Assembly (NCBI GenBank): GCA_045605175.1 | Contig: JAZUPL010000035.1 | Span: 1 to 63,600, forward strand | Origin: Eubacteriales bacterium | GTDB taxonomy: Bacteria > Bacillota > Clostridia > Oscillospirales > CAG-272 | Length of the DNA stretch: 63,600 nt | Direction of reading: 5' to 3' | Shown here: positions 43,148-53,096 of the stretch, one piece after another | How positions within the stretch are numbered: position 1 is the stretch's first letter | Layout of the letters: each line of letters starts with the position of its first letter | Translations under genes and position numbers: made by a program | The notes under the pieces: generated by a model | What the model was told of the DNA's origin: nothing | Database searches by the model: none | The model's input: the letters and a program-made list of their open reading frames with translations, nothing else

Positions 43148-44899
43148 TTAAATATCAAACTTCTTTCTTGCAACGTAAGAAGTGTGGAGAATATGGTGAG
43201 CCGCGTGGCAACCATAACCACCCTTGAAGTAATTGTCATAAACCTCTTTGATAACAGGGTTGAGGTGAGATTTACGGAGAGTGGAAGCCTCGTCCTGAGC
43301 ATAGAGAGCCTGCGCTCTTACTGCCTTGAGATCAACCGTATCTCTTACCGACTGGGGCTGGATAGGCTGACCGCCACCGTTTACACAACCGCCGGGGCAA
43401 CCCATAATCTCAACGAATGTCCAGTCTGCCTCGCCGCTTGCAATCTTGTCCATAACGAGTTTGGCATTTGCCGCACCGGAAGCAACAGCAACCTTAATCT
43501 CGATACCTGCAATGTTGTAGGTAGCCTCTTTAAGACCCTCGGTTCCTCTTACCTCGTGGAACTCAACGCTCTCGTTATCCTTGCCGGTGAGAACGTCGTT
43601 AGCGGTACGAAGAGCAGCCTCCATAACGCCACCGGTAGCACCGAAGATAACCGCAGCACCCGTATCGATGCCAAGAGGATTATCGAATTCCTCGTCAGGA
43701 AGAGTGGTGAACTTAATACCTGCACGCTGAATCATTCTTGCAAGTTCGCGAGTGGTAATAGCAACATCAACGTCAACGATGCCGTCACCTGCTGCACACA
43801 TATCATCTCTCTGTACCTCAAACTTCTTAGCAGTACAGGGCATAACCGATACTACGAAGATATCCTTAGGATCATAGCCCATCTTTTCTGCCCAGTAGGT
43901 CTTGATAAGAGCGCCGGACATCTGCTGGGGAGATTTACAGGTGGAGAGGTGGTCGATGAAGTTGGGGTAGTAATACTCACAGAACTTAACCCAACCGGGT
44001 GAGCAGGAGGTAATCATAGGAAGAACGCCGCCGTTCTTAACTCTGTCAAGAAGTTCGGTAGCCTCCTCAACTATGGTGAAGTCTGCTGCGTTGTCGGTGT
44101 CGAATACCTGCTCGAAGCCAAGGCGACGGAGAGCAGCAACCATCTTGCCCTCAACGTTAGTTCCGATAGGCATACCGAAGCACTCGCCAAGAGTCGCTCT
44201 GATAGAGGGAGCGGTCTGTACGATAACGTGCTTTGTACCGTCGCAAAGAGCGTCCCAAACCTTGTCGGTGTCGTCCTTTTCTACAAGAGCACCGGTGGGG
44301 CAAACAGCGGTACACTGACCGCAGGAGATACAGGGGGTTTCACCGTGGGACATATTGAAGGGTTGTCCTATGCAGGTGTCAATACCACGGTTGTTTGCGC
44401 CGATAACCGATACATACTGCTCGTTACATACTGCAACACATCTACGGCAGAGGATACACTTGTTGTTATCTCTTACGAGGTGGGGGGTAGAGCAGTCAAG
44501 CTCGTATTCGGGCTTGAAGCCGTCAAATGCCTTAGAATCTACACCGTACTCAAGGCAGAGTTTCTGCAACTCGCAGTTTGTAGAGCGAGCGCAGGACAGA
44601 CAGTTTTTGTCGTGGGTGGAGAGAATAAGTTCGAGAGTGGTCTTGCGAGCGTCCATAACCTTCTGTGTGTTGGTCTTAATCTCCATACCCTCGGTAACAG
44701 GATATACGCAAGCGGTAACAAGGCCTCTTGCACCGGTAGCCTCAACAACGCAGATACGGCAAGCACCTATCTCGTTTTTCTCCTTCATAAAGCAGAGGGT
44801 AGGGATTTCTACGCCTGCTGCGCGTGCTGCTTCAAGAATAGTAGCACCTTTAGGTACGCTTACAGCGATACCGTTAACTTTTACATTTAACATTTCCAT
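43148..44899 (-). CDS. hydA: [FeFe]-hydrogenase catalytic subunit HydA (2Fe-2S + His-ligated 4Fe-4S + 2x4Fe-4S + H-domain)
   Basis: H-cluster motifs TSCSPGW, MPCTAKKFE and EIMGCPGGCVNGGGQP. Start set at MEMLNV, 8 nt after AAAGGAG. Confidence 0.93.
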   Translation of the reverse strand: MEMLNVKVNGIAVSVPKGATILEAARAAGVEIPTLCFMKEKNEIGACRICVVEATGARGLVTACVYPVTEGMEIKTNTQKVMDARKTTLELILSTHDKNCLSCARSTNCELQKLCLEYGVDSKAFDGFKPEYELDCSTPHLVRDNNKCILCRRCVAVCNEQYVSVIGANNRGIDTCIGQPFNMSHGETPCISCGQCTAVCPTGALVEKDDTDKVWDALCDGTKHVIVQTAPSIRATLGECFGMPIGTNVEGKMVAALRRLGFEQVFDTDNAADFTIVEEATELLDRVKNGGVLPMITSCSPGWVKFCEYYYPNFIDHLSTCKSPQQMSGALIKTYWAEKMGYDPKDIFVVSVMPCTAKKFEVQRDDMCAAGDGIVDVDVAITTRELARMIQRAGIKFTTLPDEEFDNPLGIDTGAAVIFGATGGVMEAALRTANDVLTGKDNESVEFHEVRGTEGLKEATYNIAGIEIKVAVASGAANAKLVMDKIASGEADWTFVEIMGCPGGCVNGGGQPIQPQSVRDTVDLKAVRAQALYAQDEASTLRKSHLNPVIKEVYDNYFKGGYGCHAAHHILHTSYVARKKFDI

Positions 44900-44916
44900 T
44901 TTCGGCACTCCTTTCA

Positions 44917-46743
44917 TTACTTCTTGGAAATAGCACCAAACTTACAACCTGCCATACAAGCACCACATTTGATACACTTAGCCGTATCAATAGCGTAAGA
45001 GGGCAGTTTGTGGCCGGGAGCAACATAGTCGGTCTTCTGGATAGCATCAACAGGGCAGTTCTTTGCACACTTGCCGCAACCGATACACTTATCCTGATCG
45101 ATGCTGAAGGAAAGCAAGCCCTTACATACACCTGCGGGACACTTCTTGTCAACTACGTGAGCGATATATTCCTCGCGGAAGAACTTAAGAGTTGCAAGAA
45201 CAGGGTTGGGAGCAGTCTGACCAAGACCACAGAGAGAATTCTGCTTTATGTAGTTGCAGAGATATTCAAGTCTGTCGATGTCCTCAAGAGTGCCCTTACC
45301 GTCGGTAATCTTCTCAAGAAGTTCAAGAAGTCTTCTTGTACCAACACGGCAGGGAGTACACTTACCACAGGACTCGTCAACGGTGAACTCAAGGAAGAAC
45401 TTAGCCATATCAACCATACAGGTGTCCTCGTCCATAACAATAAGACCACCCGAACCCATCATACAGCCGATAGAAACGAGGTTGTCGTAATCTACTTCGG
45501 TGTCGATAAGAGATGCAGGGATACAACCACCGGAAGGACCACCGGTCTGAGCCGCCTTGAAGGTCTTGCCGTTAGGAATACCGCCACCAATATCGTAGAT
45601 AATCTCACGAAGGGTAGTACCCATAGGAATCTCAACAAGACCGGTGTGCTCAATCTTACCACCGAGAGCGAATACCTTAGTACCCTTGGATCTCTCTGTA
45701 CCCATAGAGGTAAACCACTCTACACCGTTAAGAATAATCTGAGGAATGTTGGCAAAGGTTTCAACGTTGTTTTCAACGGTGGGCTTGCCATAAAGACCCT
45801 TAACTGCAGGATAGGGAGGACGGGGACGAGGCTCACCACGGTTGCCCTCGATAGAGGTCATAAGTGCGGTTTCCTCACCGCAAACGAAAGCACCCGCACC
45901 AAGACGAATGTCAAGGTTGAAGGAGAAGCCTGAGTCGAAGATGTTGTCACCAAGCAGACCGTATTCCTTAGCCTGGTTAATAGCATTCTGAAGTCTGGTA
46001 ACAGCGATGGGGTACTCTGCACGAACGTAAACATAACCCTGGGTAGCACCAATTGCATAACCGCAGATAGCCATAGCCTCGATTACACTGTGGGGGTCGC
46101 CCTCAAGAATAGAACGGTCCATAAATGCACCGGGGTCGCCCTCGTCGGCGTTACAAACAACATACTTCTGGTCCGCCTTGTTGGGAGCGGTAAGAGCCCA
46201 CTTACGGCCGGTGGGGAAGCCTCCGCCTCCTCTGCCACGAAGACCGGAATCGGTAATAACCTTGATAACATCTTCGGGAGTCATCTCGGTGAGAACCTTA
46301 CCAAGTGCGGCATAACCGTCCATAGCGATATACTCATCAATGTTATCAGGGTCGATAACACCGCAGTTACGAAGAACTATTCTCTTTTGGGACTTGTAGA
46401 AAGCGGTATCGTTAAGCGAAACCTCGGCCTTGGACTTGGCAGCCTCAACCTCTTCGCCGGTGTCGGCGTAAACGAGTCTTTCTACAACTCTACCCTTGAG
46501 CAGGTGCTCCTCAACGATTTCCTTAACGTCCTCGGGAGTTACACGGCTGTAAAAAGTGCCTTCGGGATAAATGATAACAACAGGGCCAAGAGCGCAAAGG
46601 CCAAAGCAACCGGTCTGAACGAGTTTTACTTCCTCGGAAAGACCATATGCTGCGATGTTCTCGTTGAACGCTTCCTGAACCGACTTACTGCCTGAAGAGG
46701 TACAGCCTGTACCGCCACAGACAAGAACATGTGAACGAATCAT
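44917..46743 (-). CDS. hydB: NADH-binding flavoprotein subunit HydB (NuoF-like, with N-terminal 2Fe-2S and C-terminal 2x4Fe-4S)
   Basis: GRGGGGFPTGRKW FMN/NADH motifs, SLCGLGQ (N3 cluster), and C-terminal CIGCGKC / CIKCGAC. Confidence 0.93.
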   Translation of the reverse strand: MIRSHVLVCGGTGCTSSGSKSVQEAFNENIAAYGLSEEVKLVQTGCFGLCALGPVVIIYPEGTFYSRVTPEDVKEIVEEHLLKGRVVERLVYADTGEEVEAAKSKAEVSLNDTAFYKSQKRIVLRNCGVIDPDNIDEYIAMDGYAALGKVLTEMTPEDVIKVITDSGLRGRGGGGFPTGRKWALTAPNKADQKYVVCNADEGDPGAFMDRSILEGDPHSVIEAMAICGYAIGATQGYVYVRAEYPIAVTRLQNAINQAKEYGLLGDNIFDSGFSFNLDIRLGAGAFVCGEETALMTSIEGNRGEPRPRPPYPAVKGLYGKPTVENNVETFANIPQIILNGVEWFTSMGTERSKGTKVFALGGKIEHTGLVEIPMGTTLREIIYDIGGGIPNGKTFKAAQTGGPSGGCIPASLIDTEVDYDNLVSIGCMMGSGGLIVMDEDTCMVDMAKFFLEFTVDESCGKCTPCRVGTRRLLELLEKITDGKGTLEDIDRLEYLCNYIKQNSLCGLGQTAPNPVLATLKFFREEYIAHVVDKKCPAGVCKGLLSFSIDQDKCIGCGKCAKNCPVDAIQKTDYVAPGHKLPSYAIDTAKCIKCGACMAGCKFGAISKK

Positions 46744-46758
46744 AACCTAACCTCCTAA

Positions 46759-47130
46759 TTAATAGTTGCTGTTTGAAACGGTGAATTCTTCTACGACATT
46801 TCCGCCCTTGAGGTGCTTTTCAACAACGGTAGCAACTCTCTCGGGAGTCATTTTGACATAGGTTGTCTTTACATTGCCTGCCTCATAAACCTCAACAATA
46901 GGCTCAAGTTGGCAAAGACCGATACAACCGGTCTGAGATACGGTAACCTTGTCAGCAAGATTGCCGTTGTTTACTTCCTCAACAAAAGCATTGAGGACGG
47001 GACGAGCACCTGCTGCAATACCGCAGGTTGCCATACCGACAACGACACGGATCTCACCGGTACCTTCACGAAGAATAACCTTATTCTTCATTCTTTCTTT
47101 GATTGCTTGCAATTCAGCCAAAGATTTCAT
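46759..47130 (-). CDS. Thioredoxin-like [2Fe-2S] ferredoxin (HndB-like)
   Basis: 123 aa with MATCGIAAG...CIGLC cysteines. Confidence 0.8.
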   Translation of the reverse strand: MKSLAELQAIKERMKNKVILREGTGEIRVVVGMATCGIAAGARPVLNAFVEEVNNGNLADKVTVSQTGCIGLCQLEPIVEVYEAGNVKTTYVKMTPERVATVVEKHLKGGNVVEEFTVSNSNY

Positions 47131-47178: not shown

Positions 47179-47727
47179 TCAAATCAAATCATATTGCTCT
47201 TTGAGATAACCCTCTATCCACTTGATTATTTCATAAGTGTCAAGGGGAATACCGTCGAGCATTTCACGTAGTTCCTGTGTGTCGAGTTTTACCTCGCCCT
47301 TTTCGGTTTTATGCAAAAACAGGAAGTCTACGTTGGGGTGTCCCTGTATCAGGGTTGTTAAAGTGCTTATAACGTCGCCAAGAGGGGTAAAGTCGAGGTG
47401 GTCTTTATAAAACACGCCTGTCACGGTCGTGCCGTGGTTGGAGGGGGACTCCTCTTTTGTCAAGGAGTAAATTGTAAGCGAGCCACCTGTTTGCTCTGCG
47501 GCGAGTTTGAGTAGCGGAATGCCCATACCAACCTTTCGGGTGGTGCGAGTAGTGTAAAACGGGTTGACCACGTTTTTTTTCACCTCGTCGGTCATTCCAC
47601 AACCGTTGTCCTTTATTATAAGTGTTAGGATATTATCCTCTTCTCTAATAGAAATCTCGGTGAGGGTTGCCCCTGCTTTAAGCGAGTTTTCCGCAATATC
47701 AAGTATGTTAAGCGACAATTCCTTCAT
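47179..47727 (-). CDS. GHKL (HATPase_c) ATP-binding protein without DHp/His domain
   Basis: N box LDIAENSLKAG, G1 DNGCGM, G2 GMGIPL. No phospho-acceptor domain. Confidence 0.75.
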   Translation of the reverse strand: MKELSLNILDIAENSLKAGATLTEISIREEDNILTLIIKDNGCGMTDEVKKNVVNPFYTTRTTRKVGMGIPLLKLAAEQTGGSLTIYSLTKEESPSNHGTTVTGVFYKDHLDFTPLGDVISTLTTLIQGHPNVDFLFLHKTEKGEVKLDTQELREMLDGIPLDTYEIIKWIEGYLKEQYDLI

Positions 47728-47729
47728 AA

Positions 47730-48452
47730 CTACCTCAAAAGTTCAAACAGTCTTTTTCGAACGGTGTCGGGCGAGTCGCTCTCTTCGAGCATAAAGAAGG
47801 ATTCCGCATCCTTTATCCCCGTCAGATAGTGAGCGTCCGAACTGATAATAGCCAGTTTGTTTTGAAGAGAATAGCGTTGCTCGTAATCTTCCTTGTTCTT
47901 TCCATCACGAAGTTCGTAGAGAGAAAAATCGGCTGACGGGGGAAACGTACCAAGCACTGCTATAATTCCGTTTGCGTCGCGGTCGATGTGGGCGGGATAG
48001 CACACACCACCAAAGGATGCGACGATTTTCGGTGCGTCCTCAATAGAGATGTCTGTCGCATTGGAAAGAAGATATTCCTCTTTGCCTAAAAGACAGTCGT
48101 TTTCTCCAAAAATCAATTGTTCGCCAAAAAGATCCGGTCGATTTTTAATCTTCATTCTGTGCTTGTCCACGTAGCCGTCAAAGGCAATAGCATCCTCTAA
48201 CCTTTCAAACAAGCATACGACGTGTATGTCCTCTGAGGTGGTAAGTTCCATTCCCGCAATAGGAATAAGACCGTATTCCTCGCACGCCATAAAAAAGGCG
48301 GGACAGTTTTTCGTCGTGTTATGGTCGGTAAGAGCCACTATGTCTATGCCGGAGATTTTAGCCATTCCCGCAATGTTATATGGGGTGGAGTCATCATCGG
48401 CACAGGGAGATAGACAAGAGTGAATATGAAGATCGTAATAGTATCTTCTCAT
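47730..48452 (-). CDS. PHP-domain phosphoesterase
   Basis: YYDLHIHS...LTDHN PHP motifs. The start shares one nucleotide with the upstream stop (TGATG). Confidence 0.8.
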   Translation of the reverse strand: MRRYYYDLHIHSCLSPCADDDSTPYNIAGMAKISGIDIVALTDHNTTKNCPAFFMACEEYGLIPIAGMELTTSEDIHVVCLFERLEDAIAFDGYVDKHRMKIKNRPDLFGEQLIFGENDCLLGKEEYLLSNATDISIEDAPKIVASFGGVCYPAHIDRDANGIIAVLGTFPPSADFSLYELRDGKNKEDYEQRYSLQNKLAIISSDAHYLTGIKDAESFFMLEESDSPDTVRKRLFELLR

Positions 48453-48778
48453 CAGAGTAACCCTGCGAGTTTGCACGCACATTCGTAAGAGGGCATCTCG
48501 GTAGAGATAATGTTTATCCCTTTTTCGTTTGCGGTAGCAATAATATCTAAGGAAGGTTGTACGCCCTCGGTCAGAATAATTGTTCCGACATCACAGAGGG
48601 TAGCCACGGCAAGAATATTTACATTAGACATAATAGTGAGCCAGGCGTTACCACTCTCGGCACGTCCCATAACCCAACTTAACAGGTCACCTATGTAAAC
48701 ACCCTTTATTTCTCTGTCTGAGTCAGGAAGTGCGATAGGTTTGAAGCCGCATACTTCTGAAAGTGTTTTAGCCGTCAT
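48452..48778 (-). CDS. DRTGG-domain protein
   Basis: About 108 aa with LTEGVQPSLDIIATANEKGINIIST (DRTGG-like). Start set at MTAKT, overlapping the upstream gene by 11 nt. Confidence 0.7.
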   Translation of the reverse strand: MTAKTLSEVCGFKPIALPDSDREIKGVYIGDLLSWVMGRAESGNAWLTIMSNVNILAVATLCDVGTIILTEGVQPSLDIIATANEKGINIISTEMPSYECACKLAGLL

Positions 48779-50057
48779 TTTTATCCTCACGCTTCTCCCT
48801 CGAACGGAACGCCTTAATAGGACAATCATCTGCACAGGACAGTTTTTTAACAACGTCCTCTGCGAAGGCTCGGCAGGTCGGTGCTCCACAAGAGCCACAA
48901 TCTATACCGGGCAGAGTGTCCCTGAATTTTTGCATATCTGCCATCATTCGCATAGAGTCTGCAAGATTACTTGCGAGTCTTGTAATTGGCTGATATTCCG
49001 GCATTTCGTCGAACAGGTAAAAATCGGGAATGTATTCCAGTTCTTCCTTTGAAAGTTGATTTCTTGAAACAGGAAGATAATGCCTTAATGTTTGAAGTCT
49101 TGCCTTTGCAATAAAGGGGTTTTGTATGGTAAGAACACCGCCGACACAACCGCCCGTGCAGGCGTTGAGTTCGATAAATTCAAGGGGCGGGATATTTCCG
49201 TTTTCTATCTGGTCGAGGACGTGGATAACATTGTCAATTCCGTCCGCTGCAAGATAGTTATCGTTGAATATTGCCGCAGCCTCGCCACCCGTTCTCGCCC
49301 AACCGAGTCCTATCATACCCGATTCCGAGAGGGAGGTTATTTCGGCGTCCTTTTTCATTTTTGCTATAAGTTGGAAATATATATCCTTTATGGAAATAAC
49401 GACATCGACGGCACTGTTATAGCCTGCAAAGCCGTTTTTCACATAACTTGCCTTTGCGGGACAGGGGGAGATAAAGCAGACGCCAATATCCTCGTCGGAT
49501 AATTCAGGGTGCTGTTTCTTCGCCTTTTCCTTAGCAAGTCTTGCTGCAATCTCCATAGGAGGCAGCATATGAATGATATGATCGGTAAGGGAGGGATAAC
49601 GCAAACTAATAAGTCGCATAACCACAGGACACGCCGAACTGATAGCAGGCTTTACCACGCCATCGAGTTTCAGGTATTGCCTCGTGTATGCAGAAACCAG
49701 TTCCGCCGCCTTTGAAACCTCGTACACATCGTCAAAGCCAACCTTGATAAGACCGTCAAGAACATAGTCAATATCGTCAAGATTGTCAAACTGACCGTAG
49801 AGGGTAGGGGCAGGGAGTGCTATCTTCCACTTAAACTTAGCCATATCCGAAAGCACACCGCACACTGCTTTTTTCGCCTTGTGTGGGCATACTCTGATGC
49901 ATTCACCACAGTCAATGCATCTTGTCGGGTTGATGACAGCATGACCATCTCTGATTCGTATTGCCTCGGTAGGGCATCGTCTCAGGCAGGTTGTACAACC
50001 TGTGCATTTGCTCTCATCGAGTAAAACAGAGTGTTCATAATTGTGCATTTTTGTCAC
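48768..50057 (-). CDS. HydS-like [FeFe]-hydrogenase homolog (putative sensory): 2x4Fe-4S + H-domain + C-terminal Cys-rich FeS motif, no PAS
   Basis: CTGCTTCLRRCP and CIDCGECIRVCP. H-cluster-like motifs SSACP, SPCPAK and ELNACTGGCVGG. C-terminal CGSCGAPTC-x12-C-x3-C. Confidence 0.8.
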   Translation of the reverse strand: MTKMHNYEHSVLLDESKCTGCTTCLRRCPTEAIRIRDGHAVINPTRCIDCGECIRVCPHKAKKAVCGVLSDMAKFKWKIALPAPTLYGQFDNLDDIDYVLDGLIKVGFDDVYEVSKAAELVSAYTRQYLKLDGVVKPAISSACPVVMRLISLRYPSLTDHIIHMLPPMEIAARLAKEKAKKQHPELSDEDIGVCFISPCPAKASYVKNGFAGYNSAVDVVISIKDIYFQLIAKMKKDAEITSLSESGMIGLGWARTGGEAAAIFNDNYLAADGIDNVIHVLDQIENGNIPPLEFIELNACTGGCVGGVLTIQNPFIAKARLQTLRHYLPVSRNQLSKEELEYIPDFYLFDEMPEYQPITRLASNLADSMRMMADMQKFRDTLPGIDCGSCGAPTCRAFAEDVVKKLSCADDCPIKAFRSREKREDKNDG

Positions 50058-50062
50058 CTTGC

Positions 50063-50515
50063 TTAATAATTAACTCGCATAGTGATTCGTGTGCCGACGC
50101 CGACAGTAGATTCTATATTCATATAGTCGGTGTAGCGTTTCATATTAGGAAGTCCCATGCCTGCACCAAAGCCTAAGGAACGAATGGTGTCCGAGGCGGT
50201 GGAGTATCCCTCCTGCATCGCCTTGTCAATATCATTGATTCCTGGGCCGCGGTCTTCGAGAACGATTTCTATGTAGGAGTTACACACCTTGACAACGGCT
50301 GTGCCGCCACCTGCGTGGATAACCATATTTATCTCGCCCTCGTACATAGCAATAGAAACTCGCCTGATAGTTTCTGCATCTATGCCAAGTTGTCTTAAAT
50401 TTTTCTTTATAAGAACCGATGCCTGACCTGCCGAGGTGAAGTCCTCGCCATCGACATCAAATCGGAAAATCAATTCTTCATTCATCGTTGCTCTATTTAC
50501 CTCCAATGAGTCCAT
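50063..50515 (-). CDS. RsbW/SpoIIAB-like anti-sigma-type Ser/Thr kinase (GHKL ATPase)
   Basis: N box EGEINMVIHA, G1 DRGPGI, G2 GFGAGMGLPN. The start codon is ambiguous (Met at 50515 or 50485). Confidence 0.75.
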   Translation of the reverse strand: MDSLEVNRATMNEELIFRFDVDGEDFTSAGQASVLIKKNLRQLGIDAETIRRVSIAMYEGEINMVIHAGGGTAVVKVCNSYIEIVLEDRGPGINDIDKAMQEGYSTASDTIRSLGFGAGMGLPNMKRYTDYMNIESTVGVGTRITMRVNY

Positions 50516-50837
50516 TGCAATATAACAGGCCGCAGGAAGTGTAAAGTGTCAAATCTGTACTTAATACGACAATTCCGCTTTCTTTAGCAAGAGCGAGCAT
50601 TTCGTCACTGGGAGTTTTAGAACGAACAAAAACTATGCAAACCATATCCATCATAACTGCGGTTCGAATTACCTGAGGGTTCACAAGACCTGTGAGAAGA
50701 ACGGCTTGGTCCTTTACATAGGCGAGAACATCACTCATCAAATCGCATCCACACGCCGAATAGACGTGTTTGCCGAGGTTTTCTTCACAAGAGAGAACCT
50801 TTGCGTTCAGGAGTTCTTGAATTTTACTGATTTTCAT
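50493..50837 (-). CDS. DRTGG-domain protein
   Basis: 114 aa with LLTGLVNPQVIRTA...AKESGIVVLST. Confidence 0.7.
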   Translation of the reverse strand: MKISKIQELLNAKVLSCEENLGKHVYSACGCDLMSDVLAYVKDQAVLLTGLVNPQVIRTAVMMDMVCIVFVRSKTPSDEMLALAKESGIVVLSTDLTLYTSCGLLYCNGLIGGK

Positions 50838-50871: not shown

Positions 50872-51366
50872 TCAGTTGTATTTAGCAATAATTCCTTCCA
50901 CATCATCTACGCCAAGCCTACCGTAAACCTCATCGTTGACGGTGAGAACGGGAGCAAGACCGCAGGCACCGATGCAACGGCAAGCGGTAAGCGAGAACTT
51001 CTTGTCGGGGGTGCACTCGTCGCCACCTATACCGAGAACTTCCTGCAACTTGTTGTAGATGTCGCCCGAACCCTTAACATAGCAGGCAGTACCAAGACAT
51101 ACAGAGATGTGATACTGACCCTTGGGGGTAAGCGAGAACTGAGCATAGAAGGTGGCAACGCCGTAAACCTTCTCAAGTGGAACATCCATGCCCTCGGCTA
51201 TCATAGCCTGTACTTCGATGGGAAGGTACTCGTAGATGTCCTGGGCTTGCTGCATTACTGCCATCAACAGGCTCTTGTCGTGCTTGTGAGCGTCTATAAC
51301 TGCCTGAAGACGTTCCTTCTGCTCGGGAGTACCGCTAAAGGGAACGGTAGAAAGTTTTTTTAACAT
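50872..51366 (-). CDS. hydC: NuoE-like [2Fe-2S] subunit HydC
   Basis: Thioredoxin-like 2Fe-2S pattern C-x4-C...C-x3-C (VCLGTACYVKG...ACRCIGACGLAP). Confidence 0.9.
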   Translation of the reverse strand: MLKKLSTVPFSGTPEQKERLQAVIDAHKHDKSLLMAVMQQAQDIYEYLPIEVQAMIAEGMDVPLEKVYGVATFYAQFSLTPKGQYHISVCLGTACYVKGSGDIYNKLQEVLGIGGDECTPDKKFSLTACRCIGACGLAPVLTVNDEVYGRLGVDDVEGIIAKYN

Positions 51367-51519
51367 AATATATCCTCCTTATTAAATATCTTAAATATTG
51401 CACGCCTACACGCACATTATCTACATTATTATAACATAAGGAAAGAAAAAATACAATACAAAAAACAATAATTGATAATAAAATAACGAAATTGTAAATA
51501 TAATAAATTTTTAAGTCGA

Positions 51520-52356
51520 TTAAGCACAGTAAATTGTAAAATCTGCATAAAGTTCTTTGTAAATTTCCTTTATACACCCCTCGTTTTTCATAGAGAGAGC
51601 CTTATTATCAACGGCACAAACCCTCGTTATGAAAGATGTGGTAGCCGAGATAAATACTTCATCTGCTGTAAATATTTCGTCAAACAAGAAGGCTTTTTCC
51701 ATTACCTTTAATCCAAGCGAGGGGGCAAGTCTAATGATATTCGCACGAGTAATCCCCGGAAGAATATGCGAGCCGTTCGGGTGGGTAAAAATAGTGTCAT
51801 TTTTAAGAATAAAAATGTTCGAGTGGGCGCACTCTGTCACGACCCCGTTGCGGTGAAACACCGCCTCTTTACATCCTTTGCTTTCCGCCTCGGTGCTTGC
51901 CAATACTGCAGGGAGCAGGTTGGTCGTTTTGATATTGCACATTGAATATCTTTTGTCGGGCAGGGAAATAAGCGAGGCGGATTTCAGGTCAGGGCTAAAT
52001 TCAATAGGTGTCACAGAGATTAAAATATTGCTCTTATTCGTAACTCTGGCGTGCTTGCGTTTTTCACCCTTTCCCGAACATTGAAGATAGAGCATATAAC
52101 CTTCGTATCCGGACCTTTTGACAATATCAAAAATAATGCATATAAGTTCGGCTTTAACTAACGGATGGGATAAACCAATAGCAGAAATATTGTCATAAAA
52201 TCTTCTCAAATGCTCGTTTAGTTGATAGACCTTGCCACCGCTTCCGATAGCCACCTCATAGACCGAATCCGAGAAATATATAGATCTGTCACAGAGGGGG
52301 ATTGTTAATTCCTCGCTTTTTGAAATCCTCCCGTTATAGTAGGAGATGTCAGGCAT
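51520..52356 (-). CDS. Class IV aminotransferase (D-amino-acid / branched-chain type; D-alanine aminotransferase-like)
   Basis: Fold-type IV motifs: YEV..., CNIKTTNLLPAVLA (PLP Lys), EAVFHRNGVVTECAHSN, ILPGITR. Confidence 0.8.
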   Translation of the reverse strand: MPDISYYNGRISKSEELTIPLCDRSIYFSDSVYEVAIGSGGKVYQLNEHLRRFYDNISAIGLSHPLVKAELICIIFDIVKRSGYEGYMLYLQCSGKGEKRKHARVTNKSNILISVTPIEFSPDLKSASLISLPDKRYSMCNIKTTNLLPAVLASTEAESKGCKEAVFHRNGVVTECAHSNIFILKNDTIFTHPNGSHILPGITRANIIRLAPSLGLKVMEKAFLFDEIFTADEVFISATTSFITRVCAVDNKALSMKNEGCIKEIYKELYADFTIYCA

Positions 52357-52550
52357 AATTGACTCCTTTTTTATTACTCAAATAATTTATATAAACCTAT
52401 ATAAAACATCTTATGAGCAAGAATTGGAAAAGATTAAAAAACATTATTAAATTCAGGGAAAAATGAAGAAATAAAACAAAAAAACGGCAGATTAGCCATT
52501 TCATAAAAAAGCAAAATGAACTAACTCTGCCGTAAAATAAATATTGAAAA

Positions 52551-53096
52551 TTAGAAAGTCGTAGATTTTATAATCCTGCCATCAAAGTCGTAAACGGTGA
52601 AGGTTCTGTTCTCGTAAATCATATATGTTTTTGGGTTGTTTTCTTTGGGGAGAGAAACCGAGCCGGGGTTAAGATATGTGCAACCGTCAGCAAAAGGCGC
52701 GGAGGCAAGAACATGGGTGTGCCCATGAAGAAGAATGTCGCCTTTTCTAAACTTAAAGCCTGAGGAGGTGTTAATATTATGACCGTGCGTGGCGATAACC
52801 GTAAGACCGTCGAGCGATAGCATAATATACTCTGAAAGAATGGGGAAATCAAGCACCATCTGGTCAACCTCGGTGTCGCAATTTCCTCGTACTGCAAGGA
52901 TTTGGTCTTTATATTGATTTAAGAGCGTGATTACCTCTTTTGGAGCATAGTTTTTTGGCAGGTCGTTGCGAGGACCGTGGTAGAGAAGGTCGCCGAGAAG
53001 CAACACTCGCTCACATTTATTTTTCTCAAAAATATCAAAAAAACTACGGGCGCTTGCGAGGTCGCCGTGGATATCCGAGCCTATTAAAATCTTCAT
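52551..53096 (-). CDS. YfcE/MJ0936-family metallophosphoesterase
   Basis: GSDIHG, LLGDLLYHG, GNCD, HGH and GHTH motifs. Confidence 0.88.
   Translation of the reverse strand: MKILIGSDIHGDLASARSFFDIFEKNKCERVLLLGDLLYHGPRNDLPKNYAPKEVITLLNQYKDQILAVRGNCDTEVDQMVLDFPILSEYIMLSLDGLTVIATHGHNINTSSGFKFRKGDILLHGHTHVLASAPFADGCTYLNPGSVSLPKENNPKTYMIYENRTFTVYDFDGRIIKSTTF

What the first reader, a model, noticed from the sequence alone, without database searches (positions are those of the whole stretch)
47179..50837. Six-gene sensory/regulatory module embedded inside the hydC...hydB-hydA hydrogenase operon
Ten tightly packed or overlapping minus-strand genes form one unit. The order is hydC (NuoE-like), DRTGG, RsbW-like GHKL kinase, HydS-like hydrogenase homolog, DRTGG, PHP phosphoesterase, GHKL ATPase without a His-kinase dimerisation domain, 2Fe-2S ferredoxin, hydB, hydA.

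Start/stop overlaps at 48452, 48768-48778 and 50493-50515 imply translational coupling. The composition suggests an H2/redox-sensing partner-switching or phospho-relay circuit controlling the bifurcating hydrogenase. No DNA-binding or sigma/anti-sigma-antagonist output is encoded locally.

Similar gene sets are known bioinformatically near trimeric hydrogenases of thermophilic and ruminal Clostridia. To my knowledge their mechanism is uncharacterised.
Basis: partly seen in the sequence, partly recalled or inferred. Interest (0 to 1): 0.62.

Follow-up and report, generated by a model that had tools for sequence, protein, structure and literature searches.

The report
Hydrogen-sensor gene cassette inside hydrogenase operon
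The genes are real and form a very common but still unexplained cassette built around a putative hydrogen-sensing hydrogenase (group D HydS); this copy is unusual only because hydC sits in front of it, and gene fusions in other bacteria show which of the small proteins probably bind each other.

Summary
Observation confirmed. Ten tightly packed minus-strand genes run hydC, DRTGG1, SpoIIAB/RsbW-like kinase, HydS, DRTGG2, PHP, GHKL ATPase, 2Fe-2S HydD, hydB, hydA.

HydS is a PAS-less group D (M2e) [FeFe] hydrogenase, the kind typified by TamHydS. Its signalling partners are still listed as unknown in a 2026 paper.

The locus is not rare. A full-length HydS orthologue occurs in 157 of 401 sampled genomes of the phylum. 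Of 45 HydS loci inspected, 41 carry the full five-gene block DRTGG1-kinase-HydS-DRTGG2-PHP in that order. It is normally followed by hydC-GHKL-hydD-hydB-hydA. Here hydC has moved in front, so PHP abuts GHKL.

Natural fusions link the parts: DRTGG1+kinase (over 100 listed proteins), HydS+DRTGG2 (4 genomes), kinase+HydS (1 genome), PHP+GHKL (about 80 clusters) and CBS+kinase (2 genomes). Both DRTGG paralogues share an invariant D-x-[L/M]-S motif that the one generic DRTGG protein compared (AF1212) lacks. ATP and metal sites are intact.

Best reading: an H2/redox-sensing complex in which DRTGG proteins replace STAS, and PHP possibly replaces PP2C, controlling HydABCD. This is inferred, not shown.

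Side finding: this genome lacks HydE, HydF and HydG, and most relatives lack HydE and HydG, although they keep HydABC.

Verdict: a new member of a known, uncharacterised kind.

The parts
51428..51436 (-). Extended -10 promoter element TGTTATAAT upstream of hydC. It is the likely start of a ten-gene transcript.
   Evidence: Sequence read. Similar TATAAT boxes lie upstream of hydC in relatives. The consensus scan lists promoter-like sites at 51394-51365. Transcription was not shown.
51399..51416 (-). Small hairpin in the hydC leader (UGUGCG, loop, CGUGCA), kept in relatives through G-C, A-U and G-U exchanges.
   Evidence: Fold z-scores were -1.9, -1.2, -3.3 and -3.0 in four genomes. No Rfam family matched. 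Its function was not tested.
50872..51366 (-). hydC: NuoE-like [2Fe-2S] subunit of HydABC, displaced here to the front of the sensor cassette.
   Evidence: PF01257, 166 bits. NuoE and HoxE models match. In 15 of 20 distant loci hydC lies directly after PHP.
50493..50837 (-). DRTGG1: a 114-aa single-domain DRTGG protein with invariant D32, S35 and D36.
   Evidence: PF07085, 31 bits. Conservation over 38 orthologues. Fused to the kinase in more than 100 listed proteins.
50063..50515 (-). SpoIIAB/RsbW-type GHKL serine-kinase-like protein, 140 or 150 aa (alternative start at 50485).
   Evidence: HATPase_c_2 and TIGR01925 at 59.7 bits, below the cut-off. The N, G1 and G2 boxes are invariant. The model of a fused homologue matches SpoIIAB 1til_E with target-normalised TM-score 0.85.
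48768..50057 (-). HydS: a group D (M2e-type) putative sensory [FeFe] hydrogenase of 426-429 aa, without PAS.
   Evidence: Fe_hyd_lg_C, 2x Fer4 and PF04060. All four H-cluster Cys are kept. SSACP shows Ala at the proton-relay position, SPCPAK shows Ser for Met353, and the C-terminal Cx2Cx4Cx16C motif is present. The features are as described for TamHydS in PMC8163306.
48452..48778 (-). DRTGG2: a 108-aa paralogue of DRTGG1 with invariant D31, L33 and S34. It overlaps the HydS stop by 11 nt.
   Evidence: Fused to the C-terminus of HydS in four genomes of two families.
47730..48452 (-). PHP phosphoesterase, 240 aa, with all metal-ligand motifs conserved.
   Evidence: PF02811. Invariant H9, H11, D43-H44, E69, H77, H155, D206 and H208. 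Closest solved fold is EndoQ 5zb8, E 4e-14. Fused to GHKL in about 80 protein clusters.
47179..47727 (-). GHKL ATPase, 182 aa: a histidine-kinase-type catalytic domain plus a small alpha/beta C-terminal subdomain. No DHp/HisKA domain.
   Evidence: HATPase_c, 50.8 bits. N, G1 and G2 boxes are conserved, plus a loop motif H110-x-D112-x-x-P-x-G. The AF2 model of the fused homologue shows no helical hairpin. Pfam finds nothing in the last 86 aa.
46759..47130 (-). HydD-like thioredoxin-type [2Fe-2S] ferredoxin.
   Evidence: PF01257, 29.5 bits. It occurs together with GHKL and the cassette, and is absent from 8 of 10 complete cassette-less hydCBA loci.
44917..46743 (-). hydB: NuoF-like FMN/NADH subunit.
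   Evidence: Complex1_51K at 155 bits, NADH_4Fe-4S, and 2x Fer4.
43148..44917 (-). hydA: catalytic [FeFe] hydrogenase subunit of the trimeric NADH-dependent (bifurcating-type) enzyme.
   Evidence: NF040763, 865 bits against a 765-bit cut-off. The L1 motif reads TSCSPGW, as in 35 of 37 HydA of this clade.

Best explanation
The locus encodes a trimeric NADH-dependent (bifurcating-type) hydrogenase, HydABC plus HydD, together with its own H2/redox-sensing signalling complex.

**Proposed assembly (inferred).**
- HydS, a group D hydrogenase, is the input.
- It carries no PAS domain. The small DRTGG2 protein is translationally coupled to it, and fused to it in some lineages. DRTGG2 sits where group C sensors carry PAS and acts as the transmitter.
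- The SpoIIAB-like GHKL kinase binds HydS on its N-terminal side. It also binds DRTGG1.
- The two DRTGG paralogues play the part that STAS proteins play in partner switching. The kinase binds them and probably phosphorylates the invariant serine of the D-x-[L/M]-S motif: S35 in DRTGG1 and S34 in DRTGG2.
- PHP and the second GHKL ATPase form a second unit. PHP resets the phospho-state or hydrolyses a nucleotide.
- The GHKL ATPase is normally encoded between hydC and hydD. It couples the signal to the HydABCD enzyme or to its expression.

**Shown here.** Gene content, conserved order, fusions, intact catalytic motifs, and the SpoIIAB-like fold.

**Inferred.** H2 sensing, complex formation, serine phosphorylation, the role of PHP, and the output.
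For: **HydS type.** HydS has every sequence feature reported for group D/M2e TamHydS (PMC8163306). That paper reports low turnover, higher H2 affinity than other [FeFe] hydrogenases and a stabilised reduced state, and proposes a sensory role.

**Conservation.** The HydS orthologue is present in 157 of 401 genomes and 101 of 271 genera of the phylum. Of 45 HydS loci inspected, 41 carry the block DRTGG1-kinase-HydS-DRTGG2-PHP in that order. The other four lack PHP and/or DRTGG1 or end at a contig edge.

**Fusions.**
- DRTGG1+kinase: 4828 hits, more than 100 of the 120 listed full-length, many carrying PF07085 and PF13581.
- HydS+DRTGG2: L071-L073 and L075.
- Kinase+HydS: L076.
- PHP+GHKL: about 80 clusters.
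- CBS+kinase: L036 and L050.

**Structure models.**
- DRTGG+kinase fusion: pLDDT 90, pTM 0.82 despite a disordered linker. Its kinase half matches SpoIIAB and RsbW.
- PHP+GHKL fusion: pLDDT 92.6, pTM 0.78.

**Motifs.** The D-x-[L/M]-S motif is invariant in both DRTGG paralogues. It is absent from the one generic DRTGG protein aligned, AF1212. It sits at a helix N-terminus. From my own knowledge, the phosphoserine of SpoIIAA sits at a comparable position.

**No other partner.** The genome's only other SpoIIAB-type kinase lies in its own spoIIAA-spoIIAB-sigF operon. The only STAS protein seen is SpoIIAA in that operon; STAS was not searched genome-wide.

**Link to the enzyme.** GHKL and HydD accompany the cassette. 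They are missing from 8 of 10 complete cassette-less hydCBA loci. The two exceptions keep a DRTGG2-like gene.
Against: - No experiment links any of these proteins to another, or to H2.
- The 2026 TamHydS study found that the C-terminal cluster is not reduced by H2. The transmission route is therefore unclear (PMC13104023).
- No coordinates were available, so I could not check whether S35 faces the ATP site in the model.
- PHP is structurally closest to EndoQ, pAp phosphatases and RNase AM. Known PHP protein phosphatases are not among the 50 matches listed.
- The kinase+HydS fusion was seen in one genome only.
- This genome lacks HydE, HydF and HydG. How HydS or HydA would obtain an H-cluster here is unknown.
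- Metatranscriptome contigs gave no usable evidence of co-transcription.
Confidence: 0.5

Rival explanations
1. Classical partner switch with a remote transcriptional output. The SpoIIAB-like protein acts as an anti-sigma or anti-regulator factor and sequesters an unlinked sigma factor or transcription factor. HydS and the DRTGG proteins release that factor when H2 is high, so hyd and fermentation genes are controlled at the promoter.
For: - The kinase has the SpoIIAB/RsbW fold, with target-normalised TM-scores of 0.75-0.86.
- TamHydS is flanked by an AraC regulator (PMC8163306).
- R. albus changes hydrogenase and adhE transcription with H2 (PMC6776011).
- NADH-dependent hydrogenase activity in Caldanaerobacter is reported to be affected by H2 partial pressure (cited in PMC3561251).
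Against: - No sigma factor, STAS protein or DNA-binding protein is conserved near the cassette in 37 loci. Only Rex lies nearby, in 4 of them.
- The cassette is tightly tied to the hydABCD structural genes and to a second ATPase that is interleaved with them.
- In this genome the cassette sits inside the operon it would have to regulate.
Confidence: 0.2
2. An energy-charge or nucleotide sensor rather than a phospho-protein relay. The DRTGG proteins, and the CBS domains present in some lineages, bind adenine nucleotides. PHP hydrolyses a nucleotide or a nucleotide-derived signal, and the two GHKL proteins act as ATP-operated clamps. HydS contributes redox or H2 input.
For: - CBS pairs are fused to the kinase in L036 and L050.
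- DRTGG is the partner of the CBS pair in the solved regulatory region of C. perfringens pyrophosphatase (3l31/3l2b matches). That the CBS pair there binds adenine nucleotides is from my own knowledge.
- PHP is closest to EndoQ, 3',5'-bisphosphate nucleotidases and RNase AM.
- The GHKL protein has an extra alpha/beta subdomain, and some matches to MutL/PMS2 span about 180 columns.
Against: - The D-x-[L/M]-S motif was not found in the one generic DRTGG protein compared.
- The kinase keeps the complete SpoIIAB-type catalytic motif set.
- No nucleotide-binding motif was identified in the DRTGG proteins.
Confidence: 0.15
3. Not a signalling system. The accessory proteins would be ATP-dependent assembly, repair or protection factors for the H-cluster or the Fe-S clusters of HydABCD, with HydS acting as a scaffold or low-rate auxiliary hydrogenase.
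For: - This genome lacks HydE, HydF and HydG, and most relatives lack HydE and HydG, yet they keep conserved HydABC.
- GHKL ATPases include chaperones; Hsp90/GRP94 appear among the fold matches.
- TamHydS is catalytically competent, though slow (PMC8163306).
Against: - The cassette also occurs next to HydF- and HydG-like genes in other families (L034 and L042; those calls rest on my reading of motifs).
- It also occurs in cultured thermophiles such as C. thermocellum, whose hydG is listed in PMC8457756.
- Maturase-less relatives with plain hydCBA and no cassette also exist.
- None of the proteins resembles a radical-SAM enzyme or a scaffold.
Confidence: 0.07

Closest known systems
TamHydS locus of Thermoanaerobacter mathranii; group D (M2e) putative sensory [FeFe] hydrogenases (PMC8163306, PMC13104023; listed as 'D M2e' for Csac_1857, Athe_1292, Teth39_1463 and Cthe_0335 in PMC3561251)
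   Same: - Two N-terminal [4Fe-4S] motifs and an H-domain with all four cluster cysteines.
- The proton-relay Cys is lost, and Met353 is replaced by Ser.
- C-terminal Cx2Cx4Cx16C motif, and no PAS domain.
- Encoded beside a trimeric HydABC and kinase-like ATPases.
   Different: - Here hydC precedes the cassette, so all ten genes look like one operon.
- No AraC regulator is present.
- The host is an uncultured gut Clostridia MAG without hydE, hydF or hydG.
- Phylogenetic placement with TamHydS was not computed, because its sequence was not on hand.
Halanaerobium hydrogeniformans putative operon Halsa_1862-1871 (PMC4237134)
   Same: Nearly the same gene content in the canonical order: unnamed ORF, anti-sigma-type Ser/Thr kinase, Fe-S/hydrogenase protein, PHP, NuoE (hydC), 'histidine kinase', ferredoxin-like protein, NADH dehydrogenase (hydB), hydA. 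No separate second small ORF (DRTGG2) is listed.
   Different: There hydC lies after PHP, and GHKL lies between hydC and the ferredoxin. HydS appears annotated as two genes. The operon is described only at annotation level.
Group C (M2f) sensory hydrogenases: TmHydS, R. albus HydS, and (from my own knowledge) the T. saccharolyticum HfsB with the HfsC PP2C phosphatase and the HfsD RsbW-like kinase
   Same: An H-cluster sensor with the extra C-terminal [4Fe-4S] cluster, paired with Ser/Thr phospho-signalling proteins and hydrogenase or fermentation genes (PMC6776011, PMC8163306).
   Different: - Group C carries a fused PAS domain and uses a PP2C phosphatase.
- Here a separate DRTGG protein occupies the position after the C-terminal cluster; it is fused there in four genomes.
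- Here the phosphoesterase is PHP.
SpoIIAB-SpoIIAA-SpoIIE and RsbW-RsbV-RsbU partner switching
   Same: A small GHKL kinase/anti-sigma fold (target-normalised TM-score 0.85 to SpoIIAB). A small alpha/beta partner protein with an invariant Ser at a helix N-terminus. A dedicated phosphoesterase gene.
   Different: No STAS protein, no PP2C and no sigma factor in the locus. TIGR01925 scores 59.7 bits against a 135-bit cut-off. The genome has a separate, genuine spoIIAA-spoIIAB-sigF operon.
[NiFe] regulatory hydrogenase HoxBC with HoxJ/HoxA of Cupriavidus necator (from my own knowledge; also cited in PMC6776011 and PMC8163306)
   Same: A slow, inhibitor-tolerant hydrogenase used as an H2 sensor that controls energy-converting hydrogenases through a kinase.
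   Different: An unrelated metal site and fold. It signals through a PAS histidine kinase and a response regulator with a DNA-binding output, none of which is present here.
hydC-HK-hydD-hydB-hydA core operon of Caldicellulosiruptor bescii (Athe_1295-99) and C. thermocellum (Clo1313_1885-81), under Rex control (PMC8457756)
   Same: A five-gene iron-only hydrogenase operon. That it includes the GHKL-only 'histidine kinase' and the HydD ferredoxin is from my own knowledge and from the canonical order seen; the paper lists it only as an iron-only hydrogenase operon.
   Different: No Rex box was found near hydC in this window at up to 3 mismatches. Here the sensor cassette is inserted between hydC and GHKL.

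Membership tests
Group D (M2e) putative sensory [FeFe] hydrogenase (HydS) | [quoted passage not shown] | tested here: met
   Fer4 families and Fe_hyd_lg_C at 105 bits. Cys of SSACP, SPCPAK and ELNACTGGC are conserved in 38 orthologues.
Group D (M2e) putative sensory [FeFe] hydrogenase (HydS) | The proton-relay Cys299 is lost, and Met353 is replaced by Ser or Thr. | tested here: met
   SSACP shows Ala at the Cys299 position. SPCPAK shows Ser at the Met353 position. The criteria are from PMC8163306.
Group D (M2e) putative sensory [FeFe] hydrogenase (HydS) | A C-terminal Cx2Cx4Cx16C cluster motif and no PAS domain. | tested here: met
   DCGSCGAPTCRAFAEDVVKKLSCADDC fits the motif, and PF04060 scores 42.9 bits. 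No PAS hit; the protein ends 22 residues after the motif.
Group D (M2e) putative sensory [FeFe] hydrogenase (HydS) | Falls in the same phylogenetic clade as TamHydS, apart from groups A, B and C. | not tested
   No TamHydS or HydDB reference sequences were available. Paralogues of the longer, probably group C, type in relatives are only about 30% identical.
Group D (M2e) putative sensory [FeFe] hydrogenase (HydS) | Binds an H-cluster and reacts with H2. | not testable with these tools
   This needs protein work. Note that hydE, hydF and hydG are absent from this genome.
SpoIIAB/RsbW partner-switching module | A GHKL serine kinase/anti-sigma protein of the SpoIIAB/RsbW family. | tested here: inconclusive
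   The fold and the N, G1 and G2 motifs match. The equivalog models score below their cut-offs: TIGR01925 at 59.7 against 135, and RsbW at 19.6 against 145.
SpoIIAB/RsbW partner-switching module | A STAS-domain antagonist phosphorylated on a conserved Ser. | tested here: not met
   No STAS domain in the locus. The only STAS protein seen is SpoIIAA in the sigF operon; STAS was not searched genome-wide. DRTGG proteins are proposed as functional substitutes. That is an inference.
SpoIIAB/RsbW partner-switching module | A PP2C (SpoIIE/RsbU) phosphatase and a target sigma factor. | tested here: not met
   Neither is in the window's locus or in the 37 related loci examined. A PHP protein is present instead.
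Two-component histidine kinase | A DHp/HisKA dimerisation domain with a phospho-accepting His, plus a cognate receiver domain. | tested here: not met
   No HisKA hit, even for the isolated C-terminus at E up to 10. The AF2 model shows an alpha/beta subdomain, not a helical hairpin. No REC gene is in the locus. The H110-x-D112 loop motif resembles an H-box in sequence only.
Trimeric NADH-dependent / electron-bifurcating [FeFe] hydrogenase HydABC (group A3; NCBIfam 'A6') | HydA with NuoG-like N-terminal Fe-S domains, plus NuoF-like HydB and NuoE-like HydC, all in one operon. | tested here: met
   NF040763 at 865 bits against a 765-bit cut-off. Complex1_51K, NADH_4Fe-4S and 2Fe-2S_thioredx also match.
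Trimeric NADH-dependent / electron-bifurcating [FeFe] hydrogenase HydABC (group A3; NCBIfam 'A6') | The maturases HydE, HydF and HydG are present in the genome. | tested here: not met
   No HydG hit and no HydE hit. The best HydF score is 90 bits against a 325-bit cut-off, from generic GTPases. The MAG is 96% complete, and the same absence is seen in 24 of 25 genomes of the genus.
DRTGG domain (PF07085) | A match to the Pfam model and the fold of solved DRTGG domains. | tested here: met
   DRTGG1 scores 31.0 against a 25.2 cut-off. DRTGG2 scores 24.4, borderline, but is a paralogue of DRTGG1. The model matches 3l31, 2ioj and the HPr-kinase N-domain.
PHP phosphoesterase (PF02811) | The conserved His/Asp/Glu metal ligands of the four PHP motifs. 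| tested here: met
   H9, H11, E69, H77, H155, D206 and H208 are at least 95% conserved in 36 orthologues. Fold matches are to EndoQ, TM0559 and RNase AM.

The most novel reading that the evidence does not exclude
The cassette is an undescribed class of partner-switch-like signalling built from non-canonical parts.

- An [FeFe]-hydrogenase-derived H2 sensor is hard-wired to a SpoIIAB-type kinase.
- Two specialised DRTGG paralogues replace STAS as serine-phosphorylated adaptors. DRTGG2 stands in for the PAS domain of group C sensors.
- A PHP-GHKL pair works as a bifunctional reset/effector unit. It acts directly on the HydABCD enzyme, after translation, much as PDH kinase and phosphatase act on pyruvate dehydrogenase.

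There would be no transcription factor at all.
Probability: 0.25. Interest if true: 0.75.

Novelty: new member of a known kind. Interest (0 to 1): 0.4.

Why it matters
Electron-bifurcating hydrogenases set how much H2 gut and rumen fermenters release. How these bacteria sense H2 is an acknowledged gap. The 2026 TamHydS paper states that identifying the interaction partners of group D hydrogenases is critical (PMC13104023).

This locus adds nothing unique. The comparative evidence gathered around it does turn the gap into specific experiments:
- Test for HydS-DRTGG2, kinase-DRTGG1 and PHP-GHKL complexes.
- Test the S35 and S34 phosphosites.
- Use natural variants within one genus: the full ten-gene form, a reduced form, and plain hydCBA.

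The side observation may interest hydrogenase specialists more. A whole gut lineage keeps HydABC, and often HydS, without the HydE and HydG genes. It parallels the maturase-less archaea reported in PMC11216029.

Tried and rejected
1. **Transcript evidence.**
   - DNA runs from animal gut metagenomes hold the locus.
   - The RNA runs hold only short contigs, mostly 88-95% identical, from relatives' hydA, hydB and hydC.
   - The low depth over the cassette is confounded by its lower sequence conservation, so nothing can be concluded about co-transcription.
2. **Rex control.** No Rex box (TTGTGAAN4TTCACAA, up to 3 mismatches) lies near hydC; the three matches in the window lie elsewhere and are no more than chance gives.
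3. **GHKL as a permuted histidine kinase.** The conserved (S)H-x-D-x-x-P-L-G motif looks like an H-box. Pfam finds no HisKA, and the AF2 model places the motif in a loop ahead of an alpha/beta subdomain. I rejected the family assignment and kept the motif as an unexplained conserved feature.
4. **PHP as a CpsB/YwqE-type protein phosphatase.** Fold search did not support this; EndoQ and nucleotide phosphoesterases rank first.
5. **Conserved output gene.** I clustered 623 flanking ORFs from 37 loci and found none. Rex lies nearby in 4 loci, and Rnf genes in 4.
6. **Known RNA family in the locus.** None was found.
7. **First scan of genome contigs.** Run with a single protein, it returned only one near-identical MAG. 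The genome search was used instead.
8. **Model coordinates.** None could be obtained, so the predicted DRTGG-kinase interface could not be inspected.

Full report
**1. What is in the sequence.**

Between 43148 and 51366 the minus strand carries ten ORFs with gaps of -11 to +48 nt.

- hydC: NuoE-like.
- A 114-aa DRTGG protein (DRTGG1).
- A 140-150-aa SpoIIAB/RsbW-like GHKL protein.
- A 426-429-aa hydrogenase homologue with two Fer4 motifs, an H-domain and a C-terminal PF04060 Fe-S domain.
- A 108-aa second DRTGG protein (DRTGG2).
- A 240-aa PHP protein.
- A 182-aa HATPase_c protein without HisKA.
- A thioredoxin-like 2Fe-2S ferredoxin.
- hydB: NuoF-like.
- hydA: NF040763, 865 bits against a 765-bit cut-off.

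The overlaps at 48452 (1 nt) and 48768-48778 (11 nt) are real. The overlap at 50493-50515 depends on which ATG the kinase uses.

The consensus scan found terminator-like matches only inside hydB and hydA coding sequence, fewer than the shuffles gave. An extended -10 box, TGTTATAAT, lies upstream of hydC. The upstream genes are a class IV aminotransferase and a metallophosphoesterase. The window is contig C35 of a 2.04-Mb, 96% complete MAG. Its nearest public record is titled a 'Eubacteriales bacterium' MAG. The DNA runs that hold the locus are animal gut metagenomes.

**2. What the hydrogenase homologue is.**

The sequence reads as follows:
- SSACP: Ala where group A enzymes have the proton-relay Cys299.
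- SPCPAK: Ser for Met353.
- ELNACTGGCVGG.
- A C-terminal Cx2Cx4Cx16C motif, with no PAS domain.

These are the features that Land et al. give for the M2e/group D enzyme TamHydS (PMC8163306). [quoted passage not shown] HydDB lists a putative 'histidine kinase-linked' class C1 (PMC5037454). Whether M2e maps to C1 I could not verify.

[quoted passage not shown] It states that the interaction partners still need to be identified (PMC13104023). A Halanaerobium paper lists nearly the same gene set as a putative operon (PMC4237134).

**3. How common it is, and what the conserved unit is.**

A full-length HydS orthologue (37-77% identity, E no greater than 1e-60) is present in 157 of 401 sampled genomes of the phylum and in 101 of 271 genera. 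It is present in about 18 of 41 close relatives.

I fetched 45 HydS loci and scored their ORFs with profiles built from the relatives. The results:
- 41 of the 45 carry the block DRTGG1-kinase-HydS-DRTGG2-PHP in that order. L039 lacks PHP, L075 and L076 lack PHP and DRTGG1, and L079 lacks DRTGG1. Some blocks are cut by a contig end.
- In 15 of 20 distant families the block is directly followed by hydC-GHKL-hydD-hydB-hydA. One more has that set 5 kb downstream.
- The window's order has hydC in front of the block and PHP abutting GHKL. Most relatives in its own order share it, as does one other family (L041).
- In three further loci (L074, L077, L078) GHKL also follows PHP directly.

'Six-gene module embedded in the operon' therefore describes a local rearrangement of a ten-gene locus.

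Among 10 complete hydCBA loci of relatives without HydS (two more were cut by contig ends):
- Eight have plain hydC-hydB-hydA with neither GHKL nor HydD.
- Two keep a DRTGG2-like gene plus GHKL and HydD. One of them, L061, is from the same genus and still has the D-L-L-S motif.

GHKL and HydD thus travel with the sensor system, not with HydABC as such.

**4. Gene fusions.**

- DRTGG1+kinase: seen in L040. A database search with it returned 4828 proteins at E no greater than 1e-10. More than 100 of the 120 listed cover the full length, and many carry PF07085 and PF13581. They come from Thermoanaerobacterales, Tepidanaerobacteraceae, Thermosediminibacter and a Desulfobacterota MAG.
- HydS+DRTGG2: single ORFs of 563-570 aa in four genomes of two families. 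DRTGG2 follows the C-terminal cluster domain, the place where group C sensors carry PAS.
- Kinase+HydS: one 626-aa ORF in L076. It is a single genome, so treat it with caution.
- PHP+GHKL: seen in L049, and in about 80 database clusters down to 36% identity.
- CBS pair+kinase: L036 and L050.

The fusions follow the gene order. They suggest a chain DRTGG1-kinase-HydS-DRTGG2, plus a PHP-GHKL unit.

**5. Are the parts catalytically competent?**

Over 35-38 orthologues from about 36 families:
- The kinase keeps its N box (E49, E51, N53), G1 box (D78-x-GPGI) and G2 box (GFGAGMGL).
- GHKL keeps N14, D40-x-G-x-G and G67-x-G69, and also a loop motif H110-x-D112-x-x-P115-x-G117.
- PHP keeps all its metal ligands.
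- DRTGG1 keeps D32, S35, D36, T49-G50-L51 and K74.
- DRTGG2 keeps D31, L33 and S34.

The two DRTGG proteins are paralogues with 29% identity, and the D-x-[L/M]-S motif aligns between them. The serine is invariant in 116 fusion proteins. In a profile alignment to the generic DRTGG protein AF1212 the motif is not conserved. It is therefore likely specific to this hydrogenase-linked subfamily, on the strength of one comparison.

Structure models:
- DRTGG-kinase fusion: pLDDT 90, pTM 0.82, with a disordered 14-residue linker. S35 lies in the first turn of a helix.
- Its kinase half superposes on SpoIIAB (1til_E, target-normalised TM-score 0.85, rmsd 2.0 Å) and on RsbW. Its DRTGG half superposes on 3l31, 2ioj and the HPr-kinase N-domain.
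- PHP-GHKL fusion: pLDDT 92.6, pTM 0.78. It shows no DHp hairpin.
- Its PHP half is closest to EndoQ (E 4e-14), BAD_1165, TM0559 and RNase AM. Its ATPase half is closest to histidine-kinase CA domains, with longer but weaker matches to MutL/PMS2.

**6. Missing canonical parts.**

No STAS, PP2C, sigma factor, REC or DNA-binding gene lies in the locus or is conserved beside it. The genome has only one other HATPase_c_2 protein. It lies in a normal spoIIAA-spoIIAB-sigF operon. No Rex box is present near hydC. This contrasts with the Rex-controlled hyd operons of C. thermocellum and C. bescii (PMC8457756).

**7. Most likely mechanism.**

I take the locus to encode HydABCD plus an H2/redox-sensing complex.
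- HydS is the input.
- DRTGG2 is its detachable transmitter.
- The SpoIIAB-like kinase binds HydS and DRTGG1, and probably phosphorylates the invariant serine of the DRTGG proteins. These stand in for STAS.
- PHP-GHKL resets the system and links it to the enzyme or its expression.

Confidence is 0.5 for the general statement. It is lower for each step. H2 sensing, complex formation, phosphorylation, the substrate of PHP and the output are all inferences.

The rivals are:
- A remote transcriptional output (0.2).
- A nucleotide or energy-charge sensor (0.15).
- An assembly or repair role (0.07).

**8. An unexpected side result.**

- HydG and HydE give no hit in this genome. HydF gives nothing above generic GTPase level.
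- In the genus, 24 of 25 genomes lack HydG and HydE.
- Of 27 relatives with a HydA above the NF040763 cut-off, only three have HydG and HydE.
- Genomes scored 100% complete (G028, G037) carry the whole ten-gene locus but no HydG or HydE.
- Detection works in this lineage. G015, from the same genus, has adjacent hydE and hydG.

Maturase-less [FeFe] hydrogenase carriers have been reported for archaea and some eukaryotes, where an alternative pathway was proposed (PMC11216029). I found no such report for gut Clostridia in the papers I read. This lowers confidence that HydS here holds a standard H-cluster. It deserves its own follow-up.

**9. Verdict.**

Earlier notes of this scan flag the same cassette in at least 246 genomes with the same reading. 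I reproduced their fusion evidence independently here. This is an ordinary, rearranged copy of a widespread, known but mechanistically unsolved cassette: a new member of a known kind, of moderate interest.

Noticed in passing
whole genome G000 and relatives G001-G040: The H-cluster maturase genes are missing. There is no HydG or HydE hit, and no HydF above the cut-off, in this 96% complete MAG. HydG and HydE are absent from 24 of 25 genomes of the genus. Of 27 relatives with a bona fide HydA, 24 lack both, including two genomes scored 100% complete that carry the full ten-gene locus. How HydA and HydS are matured is unexplained.
   Followed up: partly
The same motif is present in 35 of 37 HydA sequences of this trimeric clade, with or without the cassette, so it is a clade trait and not a peculiarity of this genome.
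   Followed up: partly
window 51399-51436 (-), leader of hydC: An extended -10 box, TGTTATAAT, is followed within about 12 nt by a 6-7-bp hairpin. Relatives keep the hairpin through G-C, A-U and G-U exchanges. No Rfam family matches. It may be a 5'-terminal stabiliser or an operator.
   Followed up: partly
L061 (G015:C4, same genus) and L064 (G030:C32): Natural reduced variants of the locus. L061 reads hydC-DRTGG2-GHKL-hydD-hydB-hydA. L064 reads DRTGG2-hydC-GHKL-hydD-hydB-hydA. Both lack DRTGG1, the kinase, HydS and PHP. L064's DRTGG2 and GHKL have lost the conserved Ser and His. G015 is also the only genome of the genus with hydE and hydG.
   Followed up: partly
window 47179-47727, GHKL residues 108-118: A nearly invariant loop motif, (S)H-x-D-x-x-P-L-G-D, follows the last strand of the ATPase domain. 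It resembles the HisKA H-box SHELRTPL in sequence. It is predicted to be a loop before an alpha/beta subdomain, not a DHp helix. Its role is unknown.
   Followed up: partly
L046 (G224:C1) and L050 (G079:C17): In these loci the sensor block is followed by a roughly 440-aa NuoF-like ORF and a 340-390-aa HydS/HydA-like ORF instead of a normal hydB and hydA. Rnf-like genes lie nearby, identified only by my reading of cluster sequences. This may be a different partner enzyme.
   Followed up: no
window 51520-53096 (-): A class IV aminotransferase gene and a YfcE-like metallophosphoesterase gene lie upstream of hydC. The same pair precedes hydC in several same-genus relatives. No link to the hydrogenase is evident.
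   Followed up: no
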